This document shows, one piece after another, positions 42,094-63,598 of a DNA stretch of 64,000 nucleotides (its first letter is position 1; each line of letters opens with the position of its first letter). The DNA is taken from the NCBI GenBank assembly GCA_022706785.1, contig JAKJBW010000002.1, positions 33,367 through 97,366 on the forward strand. The letters run 5' to 3'. This DNA comes from Bacillota bacterium (GTDB lineage Bacteria > Bacillota > Clostridia > UBA1381 > UMGS1253). The notes beneath the pieces were generated by a model that saw only the letters and a list, made by a program, of their open reading frames with translations, ran no database searches and had not been told where the DNA came from. Both the position numbers and the translations under genes were made by a program.

Positions 42094-43349
42094 AGCAGGT
42101 CACCCCCTTCAAGCTCTGCCGCGGTAATGATACGCCTGCGGCCGTCACAGTACAGCATCTGCAGGCTGCCGCCGGGCAATGGCGCCGCAACAGCGCCGAT
42201 ACCGTGTGCATTTGCATAGGCCAGGGCCGCTTCGGTATCCCCCTCGCCCAGATAATTTTCCACAATCAGCCCTGCCCTGCGCAGCTTTTGGCCGGTATCG
42301 TAGGATGCGGCGTTTGCCGTGTCTGTCCAGAGCAGAATATGCGTTATGGGAGAGGCGAGCGGCTTTTTTTGTCTCTGCATGGCGGCCAGTACACGGTTGA
42401 CGCTTATCGCCAGGCCGACGGCTGCCATATCCGCGCCGAAATTCTCTATCAATGCATCATATCGGCCGCCGCCGCAGATGGCGAAGCCTACGCCGTAAGT
42501 AAAGCCCTTGAATATCACGCCTGTGTAGTAGTCGATGCTTTGCAGCATACCGAGATCCAGCGAAATGTACGTTTCCAGTCCGCAACCCTTTATGATATCA
42601 TACACCTGTCTTAGATTGCTTAGCGCCGAGCGCGACAAGGCGTTTAATCGCGGTGAATCCGCGCACGACAATACCTCTTCGCCGCCGAACAAATCGGGAA
42701 TGCTTAGCATCAGGTCTTTTATTTCGCTGTCCGCACTGTATTTTGCAATTACCTCTGCAATGCCCACCGAATCCTTATGGTCGATCAGCGTACACATTTT
42801 TTCGGTATCTTCGGCACTAAGGCCGATCTGACCGGCAAGCCCCTTAAAAAAGCTTACTTGCCCGATATCGATTTGAAATTCGCTTATGCCGGCGTCCAGC
42901 AAAGCCGTAATGGCCACAATAATGATCTCAGCATCCGCCGCCGCGCCCCCTGCGCCGATAAGCTCAATGCCCGCCTGCGTAAATTCGGAAGGCAAGGAAG
43001 AAGACGAGCCGTTATAGCGGAAGGCCTCCGCCACATAGCAAAGCCGAGCAGGCAAAGGCGCAGCGCCCCACTTGGTACCCATCATCCGGGCGATTGAGGT
43101 GGTGATATCGCCTCTGAGCGCCAGAATACGTCCCTGAGGGTCAAAAAACTTAAACAGCTTTTCCGAGGAAATATCGCCGGAGGCTGCCGCATAGATGTCA
43201 TGATATTCGATCACGGGCGTCTGTACGCGGCGGTAGCCATAGCTGTAAAATGTCGTTTGCAGCGATTGTTCTATTTGGTTTTTTGCCATGCACTCGTCAG
43301 GCAGGTAATCTGTGACCCCTTCGGGGGTATGGCATTTGTAATCCGGCAT
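42090..43349 (-). CDS. hisZ: ATP phosphoribosyltransferase regulatory subunit (HisRS-like)
   Basis: It has the class II aaRS-like fold without an anticodon-binding role in context (P.G..D.LP....., RYNG, GGGRYD). It overlaps the hisG start by 4 nt. Confidence 0.85.
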
Positions 43350-43469: not shown

Positions 43470-43498
43470 ATTATAGGCTAAAAGCCCGTCTGTGTCAA
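43470..43498 (-). promoter_or_regulatory. sigma-A-type promoter of hisZ-G-A-IE
   Basis: On the minus strand: TTGACA, 17-nt spacer, TATAAT, about 115 nt upstream of the hisZ ATG. Confidence 0.65.
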
Positions 43499-43520
43499 GC
43501 AAGCCTGCGGCAGGTGCCAC

Positions 43521-43808
43521 GGCTGACGCATACCGATAAAGAGCAAAACCTTACTTTCTTTTTCTATCGCAAAAAGAAAGCAACAAGGGTGTGGGTTCCA
43601 ATAGGCGAAGCGCACAAAAGTGAGAAGTTTTTTCGCCAGGCGAGGCGGAAGGAAGCGCAAATACTTTGTGTATTTAAGCTTTCGCAGGCGAAGCATGACG
43701 GAAAAACGGCCGCTTAGGGGCGTTTTGCCTATTGGAATCCGCACCCTAGGGAAAAAAGTGCTCATACGATTAGAATTTCGCCGTCTGCGGACGGCAATTT
43801 GTGCGCCC
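43521..43808 (-). repeat. promoter-proximal composite repeat, copy A (with nested palindrome)
   Basis: It shares GGCTGACG(C/T)AT, CAAAACCTTACTTTCTTTTT-N-AAAAAGAAAG and TTTCGCCGTCTGCGGACGGC blocks with 58515..58629 (reverse) and 63320..63438. Confidence 0.75.
43587..43746 (+). repeat. 160-bp palindromic insertion inside repeat copy A
   Basis: The arms GGGTGTGGGTTCCAATAGGCGAAGCGC (43587..43613) and GCGTTTTGCCTATTGGAATCCGCACCC (43720..43746) are inverted repeats. All four mismatches would be G-U pairs in a plus-strand RNA. Confidence 0.7.
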
Positions 43809-43976
43809 AGCCCTTCCCACATCCCCGATTCTTATCCTATAGGCAGTTACGCTAAAATTAGGATACCGGGCGAAAGACTAAAATGACCGTTAAGCTATTT
43901 GCGCAGGTGCATGCGGGCGCTGCCCGCTTTAAAAAAGTCCCGCCAAAACTTTGTCTTTTTGCTGCGCAAAAAGTTT

Positions 43977-45425
43977 CTAGCTTAGCTTTTGTATGGCTTT
44001 TTTCAGTCTTTTTATGCTTTCGTCCTTGCCCAGCAGGGCCGCAAGCTCCACGCCGCCGCCCGGCGTAAACTTTTTGCCCGACATAGCCACGCGCAGCGGG
44101 AACAAAATCTGTCCGTTTTTTACACCCATCTGCTCAATAAGCGCGGACAGCGCGTCGTGAAGCTGCGCCTGATCCCACTCGCCAATGCGTTCCATGACGG
44201 GCAAAACAGCCTCAAGCGCCGATTTTGACGACTCGGCAGTGGTTTTCATCTTTTTATTGACATACAGCTCATTGTCATATTCCGGCAGTGCATCAATAAA
44301 GTCAACCGCTTCGGGGATATCCGAAAACTTTTCAGTGCGGTCGTGCAAAAGTGCACTCAGCGCATTATAATTCACCTCACGTTTTACCGCCTCACGGTAA
44401 TACGGCATGGCCATGGCGGTGAATTCATCTAAAGACAGCTTTCGAATATATTCGCCGTTCATCCAGTTTAGCTTGTTGATATCAAAAATAGCGGGCGACT
44501 TGCTGATGCCGGAAATATCGAAAAGCGCGGCCAGCTCGTCCAAAGTAAAAATATCCTGCTCAAGTCCCGGGCTCCAGCCCAAAAGCGCAATATAATTGAT
44601 GATGGCATCCTTCAAATAGCCCTTGCCTATAAAATCTTCATAGGAAGCATCGCCTTCACGCTTAGAAAGCTTTCTGCCCGCTTCCTTCATCACAGGCGAC
44701 ACATGGATATACACAGGCAGCGCCCAGCCAAAAGCTTGATAAAGCAGATTGTACTTGGGCGTTGAGGAAAGATATTCACTGCCGCGTATCACATGCGTGA
44801 TATGCATCAGGTGATCGTCTACCACATTGGCGAAATTATAGGTGGGCAGCCCGTCTGATTTTAGCAGGACATTGTCGTCCAGCGTAGCGTTGTCCACTGT
44901 GATATCGCCAAACACCTCGTCGTGAAAGGAGGTCGTCCCTTCCCGCGGGATCTTCTGGCGTATGACATACGGGACACCGGCGGCAAGCTTTGCTTCCACC
45001 TCTTCTGCAGAAAGACGCGAGCAGTGCCCGTCGTACTTGGGCGGCACCTTGGACGCTTCCTGAACGGCACGCAGCTGGTCAAGCCTTTCCTTATCGCAAA
45101 AGCAGTAATACGCACCGCCGCGCTCCACCAGGTCCTTTGCGTACTTGGCATAAATGTTGCGGCGCTGGCTTTGGATATAAGAGCCGTAATCCCCGCCGAT
45201 ATCGGGGCCTTCATCGTGCGTCAGGCCGGTGTCGGCAAGCGTTTTATAGATCAGCTCCACCGCCCCTTCCACATAGCGTTCCTGATCGGTATCCTCTATT
45301 CTTAAAACAAACTCGCCGCCGTTTTTGCGTGCCAGAAGCCACGCATAAAGCGCGGTGCGCAAATTTCCGATGTGCATATACCCTGTAGGACTTGGGGCAA
45401 ACCTTGTCCTGACCTTATTGGCCAT
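43977..45425 (-). CDS. gltX: glutamate--tRNA ligase
   Basis: HIGH-type motif [11 protein letters not shown] and KMSKS-type KLSKR are present. Confidence 0.95.
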
Positions 45426-58411: not shown

Positions 58412-58514
58412 GCTTTTCACGGCCATCTGCTTTTCAAAGACCATATCTGACGCATGGAACATGGTAAATACATAAAAACCAAAGGGAAAGCTTGCGGGGT
58501 TTTTAGGGCCTTGG

Positions 58515-58629
58515 GCCGCTGAATAGCCGCCCTCAGACGGCGAAATTTTAAACGTTCACACGGTTTTTTCCTGGTTACTTTCTTTTTGCGACAAAAAGAA
58601 AGTAAGGTTTTGTTTTTATACGTCAGCCG
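58515..58629 (+). repeat. promoter-proximal composite repeat, copy B
   Basis: It reads GCCGCCCTCAGACGGCGAAATTT...CTTTCTTTTTGCGACAAAAAGAAAGTAAGGTTTTG...ACGTCAGCCG, the reverse complement of the copy A/C blocks. Confidence 0.75.
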
Positions 58630-58649
58630 TACTGCTGCCCCTGTATTTA

Positions 58650-58679
58650 TTGACAGTGCGTCCGCTTTTATGTGATAAT
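58650..58679 (+). promoter_or_regulatory. sigma-A-type promoter upstream of recD2
   Basis: TTGACA, 18-nt spacer, TGtGATAAT (extended -10). Confidence 0.55.
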
Positions 58680-58692
58680 ATAGGCGGATGCT

Positions 58693-60960
58693 ATGTTATT
58701 TGAAAGGACGACGGTTTTCGTGCAGGTTGTGACTATTGAAGGCGTGGTAGAGGAAATCATATATTGCAATTATCAAAACGGTTATACCGTTTGCGCCGTC
58801 GATACCGCGCAGGAGGTGGTGACCGTTACGGGCTATATCCCCTATCTTTGTGAGGGTGAGAATGTTAAGCTGGCCGGCCGTTTTACCAATCATCCTGAAT
58901 ATGGCAGACAGTTTGCCGCGCAGTATTACGAAAAGACCCTGCCCACCACGTCCGCCGCAATTTTGCGGTACCTGGCCTCAGGGGTTGTAAAAGGCATACG
59001 CCTTGCCACAGCAAAAAAAATAGTAGATACCTTTGGCGATGATTCGCTGACCGTGCTGATGGCCGCCCCTGAAAGGCTTGCGCAAATCAAAGGCATCAGC
59101 AAGGCAAAGGCGCTTGAAATAGGGGAAGCATATGCAAAGCAGCAGGGCGCGCAAAGCATTATCATGTTTTTGCAGCAATACGGCGTCAGTCCTTCGGTTG
59201 CACTCAAGGTGTTCCGCCGGTTTGGCGCGGACGCCGTGAATTATATCAAGGACAACCCTTTCCTTTTGGCGGACGAAATAGGCGGAGTCAGCTTTCAGAC
59301 CGCCGACAGGATCGCTTTGGCCATGGGGGTTGAAAAAAACAGCATAAGCCGCATCAAGGCCGGCGTGAAATATATCCTCGCCCATAATGCCATGACAAAC
59401 GGGCACACCTATGTTCCGTTTGACGATCTTGTCTATACGGCGGTGTCCATGCTGGGGGTGGACATTGCTGAAGCGGAGCGCGCCATACGCAGATTGAGCC
59501 TTGAGCAGCAAACGCATACCGAAACCATTGACGGCAACGAGGCAGTGTTTTTGATGCCCGTTTATATGGCCGAGGGCATTGTGGCAAAAAAGCTGTGCGC
59601 GCTTGCCCTGGCCGGGCCGCTTTGCAGTCCGGACCAGGCGGAAAGCCTGATCGGTGAAGCGCTTGACAACATGGCGCTCGAGCTGGCCTGCGAGCAAAAA
59701 AAAGCGGTGCTGGCCGCACTGCAAAACGGCGTTATAGTATTGACGGGCGGTCCGGGTACCGGAAAAACCACAATCGTCAATACCATCATTCAAATCATGC
59801 AAAAAATGGGGTTTTCAGTTGCTTTGGCCGCGCCTACGGGCCGGGCGGCAAAGCGTGCGCGTGAGCTGACGGGCGCCTGCGCAAAGACCATCCACAGGCT
59901 TTTGGAAATAGGCTACACCGACGATGAAAACGTGCAGAACTTTATGCGCGACGAAACCAATCCTTTAGATGAAGACGTTATTATTATTGATGAAGCCAGC
60001 ATGCTGGATATTCCCCTGGCGGGCTCGCTTATGCGTGCCATACGCCCGGACGCAAGACTTATTCTGGTAGGCGATAACGACCAGCTTGCGCCTGTGGGGC
60101 CGGGTAATCTACTGGGGGACGTTATTGCCAGCGGCGCAGTTGCCACCATACGGCTTACCCAGATTTACCGTCAGGCGGCCGAAAGCGATATCGTGCAAAA
60201 CGCGCACCGGATCATCCACGGGGAAAGGCCAAGGTGGGGCAGCCGGGATTCGGATTTCTTTTTCATGCCCCGCCCGGATGCCGCCTGCGCCGCCGCTGAG
60301 GTTACCCGGCTGTGCCAAACCCGCCTGCCGTCGTCCTACGGCTACGACCCTCTGCGCCAGATACAGGTGCTTTCCGCTATGAAAAAGGGTCCGGCCGGGG
60401 TGAAAAACTTAAATAAGCTCCTGCAGCAGGCCTTAAACCCCGCCGCTTCCGGCAAAGCGGAAAGGGCGTTTGGCGATACCGTCTATCGTGAGGGCGATAA
60501 GGTGATGCAGATAAAGAACAACTACGACATCAGGTGGGAAAGCATGGCGGGGAGCGAGGCGGGGACAGGGGTTTTCAACGGGGATATGGGGTTTATAGAG
60601 CGGCTTGATGCGGAAAATAAACAGATAACAGTGGTTTATGACGAGGAACGCCGCGTTACCTATGACTTTGCCCAGCTCGAAGAGCTTGACCTTGCCTATG
60701 CCGTCACCGTCCATAAAAGCCAGGGCAGTGAGTTTGACGCGGTGGTCATGCCCGTCTACCACGCAGCGCCCATGCTGATGCGGCGCAAGCTACTCTACAC
60801 TGCTGTAACGCGTGCCAAAAAGCTTGTTGTCCTTGTGGGCAGTGAGTCCGGTATGAACGCCTGTGTGGAAAACGCCGGCGAGCAGGGCAGATTCACCGGA
60901 CTTAAAGCAAGGCTCCAAAACCGGGAGGCCGCTGGCGCCTTACCCGGCCCAGCACAGTAA
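58693..60960 (+). CDS. recD2: RecD2-type SF1B ATP-dependent DNA helicase
   Basis: Walker A LTGGPGTGKTT, DEASMLD, LILVGDNDQLAPVGPG, and C-terminal YAVTVHKSQGSEF. Because the promoter is so close, the true start may be the GTG at 58720. Confidence 0.85.
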   Translation: MLFERTTVFVQVVTIEGVVEEIIYCNYQNGYTVCAVDTAQEVVTVTGYIPYLCEGENVKLAGRFTNHPEYGRQFAAQYYEKTLPTTSAAILRYLASGVVKGIRLATAKKIVDTFGDDSLTVLMAAPERLAQIKGISKAKALEIGEAYAKQQGAQSIIMFLQQYGVSPSVALKVFRRFGADAVNYIKDNPFLLADEIGGVSFQTADRIALAMGVEKNSISRIKAGVKYILAHNAMTNGHTYVPFDDLVYTAVSMLGVDIAEAERAIRRLSLEQQTHTETIDGNEAVFLMPVYMAEGIVAKKLCALALAGPLCSPDQAESLIGEALDNMALELACEQKKAVLAALQNGVIVLTGGPGTGKTTIVNTIIQIMQKMGFSVALAAPTGRAAKRARELTGACAKTIHRLLEIGYTDDENVQNFMRDETNPLDEDVIIIDEASMLDIPLAGSLMRAIRPDARLILVGDNDQLAPVGPGNLLGDVIASGAVATIRLTQIYRQAAESDIVQNAHRIIHGERPRWGSRDSDFFFMPRPDAACAAAEVTRLCQTRLPSSYGYDPLRQIQVLSAMKKGPAGVKNLNKLLQQALNPAASGKAERAFGDTVYREGDKVMQIKNNYDIRWESMAGSEAGTGVFNGDMGFIERLDAENKQITVVYDEERRVTYDFAQLEELDLAYAVTVHKSQGSEFDAVVMPVYHAAPMLMRRKLLYTAVTRAKKLVVLVGSESGMNACVENAGEQGRFTGLKARLQNREAAGALPGPAQ

Positions 60961-63267: not shown

Positions 63268-63297
63268 ATTATAGCAGAATACTATAGTCTTAATCAA
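63268..63297 (-). promoter_or_regulatory. sigma-A-type promoter of metA
   Basis: On the minus strand: TTGATT, 18-nt spacer, TATAAT. It lies about 165 nt upstream of the ATG. Confidence 0.55.
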
Positions 63298-63319
63298 GTG
63301 ATAGTTTCCTAAGCGCACA

Positions 63320-63438
63320 GCTGACGTGTGAAAAAGAAGGCAAAACCTTATTTTTTTTATAGAAAAGAAAATAACAAAGTAAAAGCACTCAAATGTTTAA
63401 GCTTTCGCTGTCTGCGGACAGCGTCAAAGGGCGCTGCC
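63320..63438 (-). repeat. promoter-proximal composite repeat, copy C (most diverged)
   Basis: GCTGACGTGTG...CAAAACCTTATTTTTTTTATAGAAAAGAAAATAACAA...TTTAAGCTTTCGCTGTCTGCGGACAGCG. The hairpin-2 stem carries a compensatory change relative to copy A. Confidence 0.65.
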
Positions 63439-63598
63439 ACCCCAGCACCTGAGATTTAAAAAAATCGGCTGAAAAGTGGGATAATCTTACAAAATATCAA
63501 AAACAGAACCGCTTAAATCAGCGCATTGCACAATTGACGCATCTGCACAGCTGTGTTAAGATAATAGTTAAATAGTAGGCAGGAAGGGAAAATAAGGT

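What the first reader, a model, noticed from the sequence alone, without database searches (positions are those of the whole stretch)
43470..43808. A ~115-bp composite repeat sits at a fixed distance upstream of three unrelated sigma-A promoters (hisZ, recD2, metA)
Seen in sequence: three copies (43521..43808 minus, 58515..58629 plus, 63320..63438 minus) share the same blocks. Read toward the adjacent gene, the order is as follows. First comes hairpin 2, GCCGTC-(TGCG)-GACGGC flanked by TTTCGC/AAATT. In copy C both stem positions have changed together (GCTGTC/GACAGC), which is a compensatory pair. Next is an A-rich spacer. Then comes hairpin 1, CTTTCTTTTT-N5-7-AAAAAGAAAG, followed by TAAGGTTTTG. 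Last is the block A(C/T)(G/A)CGTCAGC(C/T)GT. In all three cases the C of CGTCAGC lies 29-30 nt upstream of a good -35 hexamer (TTGACA, TTGACA, TTGATT). That hexamer is spaced 17-18 nt from TATAAT, GATAAT and TATAAT respectively, and drives hisZ-G-A-IE, recD2 and metA. The element always points toward the promoter, whichever chromosome strand it is on. Inference: there are several possibilities. It could be a dispersed terminator-plus-promoter cassette, with two hairpins each followed by U-rich tracts insulating the promoter it delivers. It could be a REP/MITE-like element that has repeatedly supplied or been recruited next to promoters. It could carry a binding site (CGTCAGCCGT at about -60 to -70) for a common regulator or an UP-like module. 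I do not recognise it as a described repeat family.
Basis: seen in the sequence. Interest (0 to 1): 0.62.

Follow-up and report, generated by a model that had tools for sequence, protein, structure and literature searches.

The report
Promoter-homing miniature transposon (ISAs1-type MITE)
The repeat is a gene-less miniature transposon whose ends match those of ISAs1-family insertion sequences, and this group of elements lands 18-19 bases upstream of existing promoters in one orientation, which explains the constant spacing without a carried promoter or a regulator site.

Summary
The three copies belong to a family I call F1, with about 23 loci in this 2.04-Mb assembly.

A full F1 copy is about 215 bp:
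- It has 18-bp terminal inverted repeats, left CACGGTAAACGCATGAAA and right TTTCATGCGTCAGCCGTG.
- It encloses a chain of six hairpins.
- It is flanked by 10-bp target-site duplications.

Of 16 recognisable right ends, 15 are followed 18-19 nt later by a sigma-70-type -35/-10 pair, always in the same orientation. The intervening bases are unrelated between copies and include the target duplication. The promoters are therefore host DNA and are not cargo.

The same 18-nt end bounds 1.18-kb metagenomic insertion sequences that encode ISAs1-family transposases and also make 10-bp duplications. Seven of seven resolvable ISAs1 elements in other Clostridia genomes show the same 18-19-nt spacing to a promoter.

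Oriented promoter homing is published only for the unrelated Mutator-like TnGBS/ISLre2/ISKra4 elements. I found nothing published for ISAs1. No transposase for F1 is present in this assembly.

How the target is recognised, and whether the hairpins act as terminators, remains inferred.

The parts
43518..43993 (-). F1 copy A (about 476 bp, composite). It lies between the gltX stop codon (43977-43979) and the hisZ promoter. The left inverted repeat is degenerate and overlaps the gltX stop.
43518..43535 (-). Right inverted repeat of copy A (...GGTATGCGTCAGCCGTG). It is the promoter-proximal tip.
43499..43517 (-). 19-nt host spacer of copy A. It consists of the 10-bp target-duplication position (GCACCTGCCG) followed by 9 nt.
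43470..43498 (-). hisZ sigma-70-type promoter: TTGACA (43493-43498), 17-nt spacer, TATAAT (43470-43475). It is host DNA.
43587..43751 (-). Nested 165-bp palindromic repeat (family F2) inserted in F1 between hairpin H3 and hairpin H4. The same composite occurs at two other loci in the genome.
43780..43795 (-). Hairpin H2 of copy A, GCCGTC-CGCA-GACGGC.
43554..43580 (-). Hairpin H4 of copy A, CTTTCTTTTT-GCGATAG-AAAAAGAAAG, followed by TAAGGTTTTG.
58442..58631 (+). F1 copy B (about 172-190 bp). Two adjacent left-repeat-like sequences lie at 58442-58459 and 58460-58477. H2 is at 58526-58541 and H4 at 58578-58602.
58614..58631 (+). Right inverted repeat of copy B (...TATACGTCAGCCGTA).
58650..58679 (+). 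recD2 promoter, TTGACA-18-GATAAT with TG before the -10. It starts 18 nt after the repeat tip. The recD2 ATG is at 58693.
63316..63484 (-). F1 copy C. It is the most diverged copy and its left end is degenerate. H2 at 63407-63422 carries the compensatory GCTGTC/GACAGC change.
63316..63333 (-). Right inverted repeat of copy C (TTTCACACGTCAGCTGTG).
63268..63297 (-). metA promoter, TTGATT-18-TATAAT. It starts 18 nt after the repeat tip.

Best explanation
The repeat (F1) is a non-autonomous DDE transposon, a MITE. Its 18-bp ends are those of an ISAs1-family insertion sequence.

What is shown:
- Its architecture is inverted repeats (IRs), 10-bp target duplications and no coding capacity.
- About 23 loci carry it in this genome.
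- Its end is identical over 18 nt (CACGGCTGACGCATGAAA) to the ends of 1.18-kb metagenomic insertion sequences (ISs) that encode ISAs1 transposases and also make 10-bp duplications.
- Both F1 and ISAs1 elements in other Clostridia sit so that a sigma-70 -35 hexamer begins 9 nt beyond the target duplication. That is 19 nt from the tip with a 10-bp duplication and 18 nt with a 9-bp one.
- F1 always has the same end next to the promoter.

What is inferred:
- F1 is moved in trans by such a transposase, which is absent from this assembly.
- The transposase chooses its target by reading the -35 hexamer or promoter-bound RNA polymerase.
- The fixed orientation comes from the conserved 3-nt difference between the two repeats. 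At positions 6-8 the left repeat has TAA, while the right repeat has CTG, the canonical IS sequence.
- The hairpin cargo, read in the direction of the promoter, may terminate read-through from the upstream gene.

On this reading the fixed distance to three unrelated promoters is a footprint of insertion-site choice. It is not a shared regulatory module.
For: - Anatomy. The full copies C12:8227-8441 and C39:2084-2300 are 215-217 bp with 18-bp IRs.
- Target duplications. They are perfect over 10 bp at C39 (ACCGGCGCAT), C16:28871-29164 (CCGCTTTGCC) and C20:27617-27796 (AAAAAAACAA), and 9 of 10 at C32.
- Spacing. 13 right ends have a promoter scoring at least 10 of 12 at +18 or +19, against 0-1 at other offsets and a background of 2.7e-4. 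Two further ends score 9-10. No outward promoter lies at the left ends.
- Parent type. Complete ISs bounded by CACGGCTGACGCATGAAAAA were found in L173, L177, L199 and L204. L164 and L192 are complete ISs of a second group that shares only the 14-nt tip CACGGCTGACGCAT. The L173 and L164 transposases score 382 and 401 bits on NCBIfam NF033564 ISAs1 (cut-off 70). L173 also matches Pfam PF13808 and PF01609.
- Duplications in the metagenomic elements. They are 10 bp in L164, L192 and two L188 MITEs. The far end of complete ISs has no promoter.
- Unbiased check. ISAs1 elements were found by protein model in same-order and same-class genomes. L209, L218, L221 and L222 have a promoter at 19 nt. L210, L211 and L224 have one at 18 nt, the last two with 9-bp duplications. 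That is 7 of 7 resolvable elements.
- Precedent for the behaviour. TnGBS/ISLre2/ISKra4 insert in one orientation 15-17 bp upstream of -35, and IR dissymmetry sets the orientation (PMC3942029).
Against: - No ISAs1 transposase is present in this 90.7%-complete, 52-contig assembly. Trans-mobilisation is therefore unproven here, and the family may be dead in this lineage.
- No empty-site allele was recovered from the two wastewater DNA runs.
- Only 4-5 copies keep a clear duplication. Older copies do not.
- One metagenomic MITE with a perfect 10-bp duplication has no promoter beside it (L188:7114-7308). One F1 right end (C33) also has none.
- The metagenome scan itself required TTGA at +19, so those sites are only partly independent.
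- Two ISAs1 copies (L210, L218) have promoters on both flanks and no duplication. I can explain this only by recombination between copies.
- Promoters are predicted from consensus. No transcription start sites are mapped.
Confidence: 0.85

Rival explanations
1. Mobile promoter cassette. On this reading the element carries the -35/-10 pair and delivers a promoter, with upstream terminators, to new genes.
For: Nearly every copy is followed by a good promoter at a constant distance. Hairpins with T-runs lie upstream.
Against: The target duplications abut the CCGTG tip, so the promoter lies outside the mobile unit. The 19-nt spacer and the 16-18-nt spacer between -35 and -10 share no similarity between copies, while the element body is 75-97% identical. 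One of the promoters drives a tRNA gene.
Confidence: 0.03
2. Shared regulatory module. On this reading CGTCAGCCGT at about -60 to -70 is a binding site for a common activator or an UP-like element, and copies are kept only where they help transcription.
For: The position upstream of -35 is where activators and the alpha C-terminal domain (alpha-CTD) bind. The block is the best-conserved part of the 3' end.
Against: The block is the tip of an inverted repeat that is mirrored at the other end of the element, and it is identical to IS ends in unrelated metagenomes. The genes served are functionally unrelated: hisZ, recD2, metA, gatC and a tRNA. Selection on random insertions would not give 18-19 nt in 15 of 16 ends. 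A secondary effect on promoter strength is not excluded.
Confidence: 0.05
3. A MITE of the Mutator-like ISLre2/TnGBS family, the published promoter-targeting transposons of Firmicutes.
For: The behaviour is the same: oriented insertion just upstream of -35. The IRs end in C. ISLre2 elements exist in the same order.
Against: The geometry differs. F1 has a 10-bp duplication and 19 nt, against 8-9 bp and 15-17 nt for that family. An ISLre2 copy from the same order (L159) shows 8-9 bp and 16-17 nt. The ISLre2 IRs found (CATAGTGTAAAATATTAATTGGCA) are unlike F1's. F1's IR is identical to the ends of ISs encoding ISAs1 transposases. No ISLre2 or ISKra4 transposase is in the genome.
Confidence: 0.02
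4. Structured RNA or REP-like element spread by recombination. On this reading the promoter association is secondary, for example because 3'-UTR terminators naturally lie before the next promoter.
For: - The hairpins keep pairing through compensatory changes.
- The inner hairpin chain is shared by many Oscillospirales genomes.
- A metatranscriptome contig covers the 5' 135 nt of one copy.
- G-U mismatches outnumber A-C mismatches 22 to 6 on the promoter-directed strand (my count).
Against: This reading does not explain the IRs, the 10-bp duplications, the exact 18-19 nt or the identity to IS ends. There is no Rfam match. Both strands fold equally well. In other species the shared hairpins have no fixed relation to promoters. 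It may be true of the cargo, but not of the positioning.
Confidence: 0.05

Closest known systems
ISAs1-family insertion sequences (NCBIfam NF033564; Pfam DDE_Tnp_1_assoc plus DDE_Tnp_1) and MITEs derived from them
   Same: F1's 18-nt end is identical to the ends of 1.18-kb ISs that encode this transposase. The target duplication is the same at 9-10 bp, and so is the spacing to promoters.
   Different: F1 has no transposase gene and none is in its genome. Its interior is a chain of hairpins unrelated to the IS interior. Its two repeats differ at positions 6-8 and it inserts in one orientation only, whereas the symmetric full-length ISs are found in both orientations. I found no publication that describes promoter targeting for this family.
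TnGBS ICEs, the ISLre2 family and the ISKra4 group (prokaryotic Mutator-like transposases; Guerillot et al. 2014, PMC3942029)
   Same: [quoted passage not shown] Their orientation is attributed to IR dissymmetry. The behaviour is what is seen here.
   Different: The transposase superfamily is unrelated: Mutator-like there, IS4-like DDE_Tnp_1 here. The geometry also differs: 8-9-bp duplication and -35 at 15-17 nt there, 9-10 bp and 18-19 nt here. Membership is rejected, but the mode of action looks alike.
Classical bacterial MITEs and mosaic repeats (Correia elements, BOX, bcr1, REP/BIME)
   Same: They are short, intergenic, multi-copy and hairpin-rich, and some are modular or nested.
   Different: From my own knowledge, those families are not described as having a fixed position relative to promoters. 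Correia elements carry promoters rather than home to them. REPs are moved by RAYT tyrosine transposases, without IRs plus long duplications.
Putative mobile promoters (homologous promoter sequences upstream of unrelated genes)
   Same: A repeated sequence sits in front of unrelated genes.
   Different: Here the promoter sequences themselves are not homologous. Only the neighbouring transposon is.

Membership tests
MITE (non-autonomous DDE transposon) | Terminal inverted repeats | tested here: met
   The left repeat CACGGTAAACGCATGAAA and the right repeat TTTCATGCGTCAGCCGTG match at 15 of 18 positions.
MITE (non-autonomous DDE transposon) | Target-site duplication flanking the repeats | tested here: met
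   The duplication is 10 of 10 at three copies and 9 of 10 at a fourth. It is decayed at older copies.
MITE (non-autonomous DDE transposon) | Too small to encode a transposase, and present in multiple dispersed copies | tested here: met
   Full copies are 215-217 bp. About 23 loci lie on 17 contigs. The one short reading frame seen by eye is broken by indels in other copies.
MITE (non-autonomous DDE transposon) | A cognate autonomous element with the same ends | tested here: met
   Metagenomic 1.18-kb ISs are bounded by CACGGCTGACGCATGAAAAA. None is in the same genome.
ISAs1 family (as source of the ends) | The ends belong to elements that encode an ISAs1 transposase | tested here: met
   The L173 and L164 transposases score 382 and 401 bits on NF033564 (cut-off 70). 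L173 also matches PF13808 and PF01609.
ISAs1 family (as source of the ends) | Duplication of 8-10 bp (ISfinder figure, from memory) | tested here: met
   The duplication is 10 bp in F1, L164, L188 and L192, and 9 bp in L211 and L224.
ISAs1 family (as source of the ends) | Transposase present to move the copies in this genome | tested here: not met
   There is no NF033564 match in G000. The assembly is 90.7% complete in 52 contigs, so absence is not proven.
TnGBS/ISLre2/ISKra4 (p-MULT 3/4) | Oriented insertion with -35 at 15-17 bp from the right repeat | tested here: not met
   The spacing is 18-19 nt in 15 of 16 right ends. The behaviour is similar but the geometry differs.
TnGBS/ISLre2/ISKra4 (p-MULT 3/4) | Direct repeats of 8-9 bp | tested here: not met
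   The duplication is 10 bp in the best-preserved F1 copies.
TnGBS/ISLre2/ISKra4 (p-MULT 3/4) | Mutator-like transposase cognate to the ends | tested here: not met
   The ends match ISAs1 ISs. There is no ISLre2 or ISKra4 gene in the genome. The one IS256-type gene (C47) has unrelated ends.
Mobile promoter cassette | Promoter sequence homologous between copies and inside the mobile unit | tested here: not met
   The spacers are unrelated, and the duplication lies between the repeat tip and the -35 hexamer.
Described RNA family (Rfam 15) | Match at gathering score | tested here: not met
   There are no matches in the 64-kb window. Only chance-level hits appear at E of 1.5 or more on copy B.
REP/BIME | Short palindromic units associated with a RAYT (Y1) transposase, without long inverted repeats or duplications | not tested
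   RAYT genes were not searched. F1's IRs and duplications argue for DDE transposition of the unit as a whole. The inner hairpin modules do resemble a mosaic.
Intrinsic terminator | Stable hairpin followed by a U-run that stops transcription | tested here: inconclusive
   H4 plus GGTTTTGTTT is flagged by the consensus scan, but its stem is A/U-rich. An RNA contig ends before the T-run after H3, but contigs break at repeats.

The most novel reading that the evidence does not exclude
A clade of ordinary one-gene ISAs1-family transposases (IS4-like DDE fold) has independently evolved landmark-directed integration. It places the element so that a sigma-70 -35 hexamer begins 9 bp beyond the target duplication. 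This is convergent with the unrelated Mutator-like TnGBS/ISLre2 elements and appears to be undescribed in the literature.

F1 would add two things:
- A natural experiment in which a 3-nt difference between the two repeats converts either-orientation insertion into strictly one-orientation insertion.
- A hairpin cargo that is thereby always delivered between an upstream gene and the next promoter in terminator-sense. In effect it would be a mobile insulator.
Probability: 0.5. Interest if true: 0.72.

Novelty: new variant of a known kind. Interest (0 to 1): 0.55.

Why it matters
Promoter-directed integration is rare in bacteria. It has been attributed to one transposase superfamily, and no structure or mechanism is known for it. 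A second, unrelated and very small transposase family with the same habit would have several consequences:
- It would give a simple comparative system for asking how a transposase reads a promoter, either through the -35 sequence or through bound RNA polymerase.
- It would explain why these MITEs accumulate without breaking genes.
- It would warn annotators that conserved blocks at about -55 to -72 in such genomes are transposon ends and not regulator sites.
- It could suggest a compact tool for placing DNA just upstream of promoters.

For this genome, it shows that at least 15 promoters now have a hairpin-rich element between them and the upstream gene. These include the promoters of hisZ, recD2, metA, gatC and a tRNA gene.

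Tried and rejected
- Rfam at gathering and permissive thresholds gave nothing.
- A small ORF on the reverse strand of one copy is broken by indels in others.
- A search of the assembly for an autonomous parent, using pairs of IR-like sequences 60-4000 bp apart, returned only the MITEs.
- Searches for ISLre2 (PF06782, NF033529) and ISKra4 (NF033572) transposases in the genome found none. The IS256-type gene at C47 has unrelated ends.
- I looked for empty-site alleles and strain polymorphism in two wastewater DNA runs. The contigs break at the repeats and no joints were seen.
- RNA evidence is limited to metatranscriptome contigs, which cannot map 5' or 3' ends.
- Tests of strand asymmetry of folding were not decisive. 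On 117 cross-species hairpin chains the energy difference was not significant (p = 0.13), and G-U counts favoured the forward strand 227 to 115. Whole-element folds are equal on both strands.
- A MAFFT/alifold run on the cross-species set was too gappy to use.
- I tested whether the widely shared inner hairpins carry the promoter association in other species. There was no F1 repeat and no fixed offset.
- The first metagenome pattern, H4 plus TAAGGTTTT, gave zero hits.
- F1 was sought in 40 relatives and in all 19 genomes of the family. It is present only in this genome.

Full report
**Observation**

- Copy A carries a 165-bp insertion between two of the blocks.
- The downstream genes are hisZ, recD2 and metA. 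The gene upstream of copy A is gltX.
- The window is C16:33367-97366 of a 2.04-Mb, 52-contig, 48.8% G+C assembly. It is 90.7% complete.
- The window's sequence occurs in wastewater and activated-sludge runs.
- Related hairpin modules occur in Oscillospiraceae, Ruminococcus and Acutalibacteraceae MAGs.

**The repeat is a family**

BLASTN and iterated nhmmer find about 23 loci of the element, here called F1. Read toward the promoter, a full copy (C12:8227-8441, C39:2084-2300; 215-217 bp) contains the following parts in order:
1. CACGGTAAACGCATGAAA, the left inverted repeat.
2. Hairpin CTTTTTGC-GAAG-GCAAAAAG, followed by AAAGTTTT.
3. Hairpin H0 (CGATTTTTT/AAAAAATCG, with variants CAAACTTTT/AAAAGTTTG and GCAATTTTTT/AAAAAATTGC).
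4. Hairpin H1 (AGGGGC-loop-GCCCCT and covarying variants).
5. Hairpin H2 (GCCGTC-CGCA-GACGGC).
6. Hairpin H3 and a T-run.
7. Hairpin H4 (CTTTCTTTTT-loop-AAAAAGAAAG), followed by TAAGGTTTTG.
8. A variable T-rich stretch.
9. TTTCATGCGTCAGCCGTG, the right inverted repeat.

The last 18 nt are the reverse complement of the first 18 except at positions 6-8. There the left repeat has TAA and the right has CTG, a difference kept in most copies.

**It is a transposon**

- The 10 nt immediately outside the two repeats are identical at C39 (ACCGGCGCAT), C16:28871-29164 (CCGCTTTGCC) and C20:27617-27796 (AAAAAAACAA). They match at 9 of 10 at C32.
- Three loci (copy A, C3, C44) carry the same nested 165-bp palindromic repeat at the same internal point. 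Either the composite moved as a unit by its F1 ends or the site is a hotspot.
- Two other copies are interrupted at exactly the same base after H4 by an IS110-family element.
- F1 was not found in 40 relatives or in any other genome of its 19-genome family.

**The promoter association**

- Of 16 recognisable right ends, 13 are followed by a -35/-10 pair matching at least 10 of 12 consensus positions. The -35 starts 19 nt (10 cases) or 18 nt (3 cases) after the tip. Every other offset from 0 to 59 has 0-1 such matches, and the genome-wide background is 2.7e-4 per position.
- Two more ends score 10 and 9 at the same offsets. One end (C33) has no promoter.
- A 65-bp remnant in front of gatC (C35:100-164) obeys the rule, and so does a copy in front of a tRNA gene.
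- All 15 associated copies point the same way, and no outward promoter lies beyond the left repeat.
- The 19 nt consist of the 10-bp duplicated target plus 9 further bases. Neither this stretch nor the spacer between -35 and -10 is similar between copies. The promoter is therefore host DNA that was already there.
- In about half the loci the upstream gene is co-oriented and its stop codon lies within 30 nt of the left repeat. The element has been dropped into very short gaps between a gene and the next promoter.

**What moves it**

The behaviour matches a published phenomenon. TnGBS elements, ISLre2 and part of the ISKra4 group use Mutator-like transposases. They insert in one orientation with the -35 hexamer 15-17 bp from the right repeat and make 8-9-bp duplications. 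Dissymmetry of their repeats is proposed to set the orientation (PMC3942029).

I tested membership of that family and rejected it:
- The genome has no ISLre2 or ISKra4 transposase.
- ISLre2 elements from the same order have unrelated repeats. One of them (L159) shows the published 8-9 bp and 16-17 nt geometry.
- F1's numbers are 10 bp and 19 nt.

A metagenome scan for the F1 right tip followed by 19 free bases and TTGA returned 45 loci. Ten of them are one conserved coding sequence and are chance matches. The rest are ends of mobile elements.
- Complete copies of 1.18-1.21 kb bounded on both sides by CACGGCTGACGCAT were found in L173, L177, L199, L204, L164 and L192. In the first four the shared end extends to 17-20 nt (CACGGCTGACGCATGAA...), the same as the F1 right repeat over up to 18 nt.
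- They encode 360-380-aa proteins. The two scored (L173, L164) are ISAs1-family transposases (NF033564, 382 and 401 bits against a cut-off of 70). L173 also matches PF13808 and PF01609.
- They make perfect 10-bp duplications (L164, L192). Short MITE derivatives do the same (L188, two copies).
- Only TTGA was imposed, yet 14 of about 30 distinct sites carry a full promoter scoring at least 10 of 12. From my own arithmetic, about 0.4 would be expected by chance.
- The other end of each complete IS has no promoter.
- With their symmetric repeats, these ISs are found with the transposase gene pointing either toward or away from the promoter.

**Unbiased check**

I located ISAs1 elements by protein model alone in 239 same-order and 401 same-class genomes. 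Wherever both repeats could be defined, the same signature appeared:
- L209, L218, L221 and L222 have the -35 hexamer 19 nt from a tip.
- L210, L211 and L224 have it at 18 nt. L211 and L224 have 9-bp duplications.

That is seven of seven resolvable elements. The rule is that the -35 hexamer begins 9 nt beyond the duplication. L210 and L218 have promoters on both flanks and no duplication. I attribute this, without proof, to recombination between copies inserted in opposite orientations.

**Interpretation**

F1 is an ISAs1-type MITE, and its constant distance from unrelated promoters is the footprint of its transposase's target choice. The following points remain inferred:
- Which transposase moved F1. 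None is in the assembly.
- How the promoter is recognised.
- Whether the 3-nt repeat asymmetry causes the one-way orientation.

The hairpins are maintained. However, whole-element folding is equally good on both strands, and a cross-species energy test was not significant.

A terminator or insulator role is plausible but not shown:
- One hairpin with a T-run is flagged as terminator-like.
- A metatranscriptome contig runs from the upstream gene into the first 135 nt of the C12 copy.

**Comparison and novelty**

The kind of thing (a MITE), the family of its ends (ISAs1) and the type of behaviour (promoter homing) are each known. The combination is not, as far as I could find. Searches of the held literature for ISAs1 with target, promoter, insertion specificity or TnGBS gave nothing relevant.

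After reaching this reading I looked at earlier notes of this scan. Several agents report the same habit for ISAs1-type MITEs in other phyla. Those are unchecked AI notes and are not independent evidence, but they agree with this reading. I rate the finding as a new variant of a known kind, of moderate to good interest.

Noticed in passing
window 43587-43751 (also G000 C3:about 1870-2030 and C44:about 42880-43200): A 165-bp palindromic repeat (family F2) has inverted ends GGGTGCGGATTCCAATAGGC...GCCTATTGGAACCCACACCC. It is nested at the same point of F1 in three loci and has about 15 further copies of its own in the genome. Either the composite moved by the F1 ends or F2 has a hotspot in F1.
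   Followed up: partly
G000 C30:92365 and C36:84 (outside the window): An IS110-family element is inserted at exactly the same base after hairpin H4 in two different F1 copies. Its transposase begins MFYCGIDIAKHKHEASV... and is 394 aa. This suggests that it targets this hairpin sequence-specifically.
   Followed up: partly
loci L013-L130 (many Oscillospirales MAGs): The inner chain AAAGTTTT - H0 - H1 - GTCGCCGTCCGCAGACGGCGAAA occurs in more than 118 loci of Oscillospiraceae, Ruminococcus, Acutalibacteraceae and Butyricicoccus MAGs, often at contig ends. H0 and H1 covary freely, and other hairpin modules follow. These loci lack the F1 repeats and have no fixed relation to promoters. The nature of this widespread mosaic repeat is unexplained.
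   Followed up: partly
G000 C13:116100-116600, C31:1400-2100, C44:49650-50350; window about 43830-43950: The genome holds dense intergenic mosaics of further hairpin modules. Examples are GCGGGCAGCGCCCGCTGGCATTACGCGGGTAGTCTTGCGGCAGTTTCGCCCTTGCGCCCGGATCC and GGGGAAACCCTCGCCGGGGGTTTCCCC. One such module is inserted in the 5' part of several F1 copies, together with a duplication of neighbouring hairpins.
   Followed up: no
window 58442-58477: Copy B has two adjacent left-repeat-like sequences, CATATCTGACGCATGGAA and CATGGTAAATACATAAAA. The first is of the CTG type. They may be the trace of two successive insertions.
   Followed up: no
loci L165, L175, L176, L192, L208 (metagenomes): A second group of ISAs1 elements has the same 14-nt tip. 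Their flanks carry TAnnTTTG motifs about 23 nt after the TTGA, which resembles Bacteroidota-type promoters. If real, the homing habit crosses phyla with different promoter consensus. The TTGA was imposed by my search pattern.
   Followed up: no
loci L210, L218: Two ISAs1 copies have outward-facing promoters at 18-19 nt on both flanks and no target duplication. This was not expected from a single insertion.
   Followed up: no
locus L188:7114-7308: A 195-bp ISAs1-type MITE with a perfect 10-bp duplication has no sigma-70-like promoter on either side. It is a counterexample showing that the homing is not absolute.
   Followed up: no
G000 C47:3-572: An IS256-type (Transposase_mut) gene is cut by the contig end. 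It is the only Mutator-like transposase found in the assembly, and its end is unrelated to F1.
   Followed up: yes
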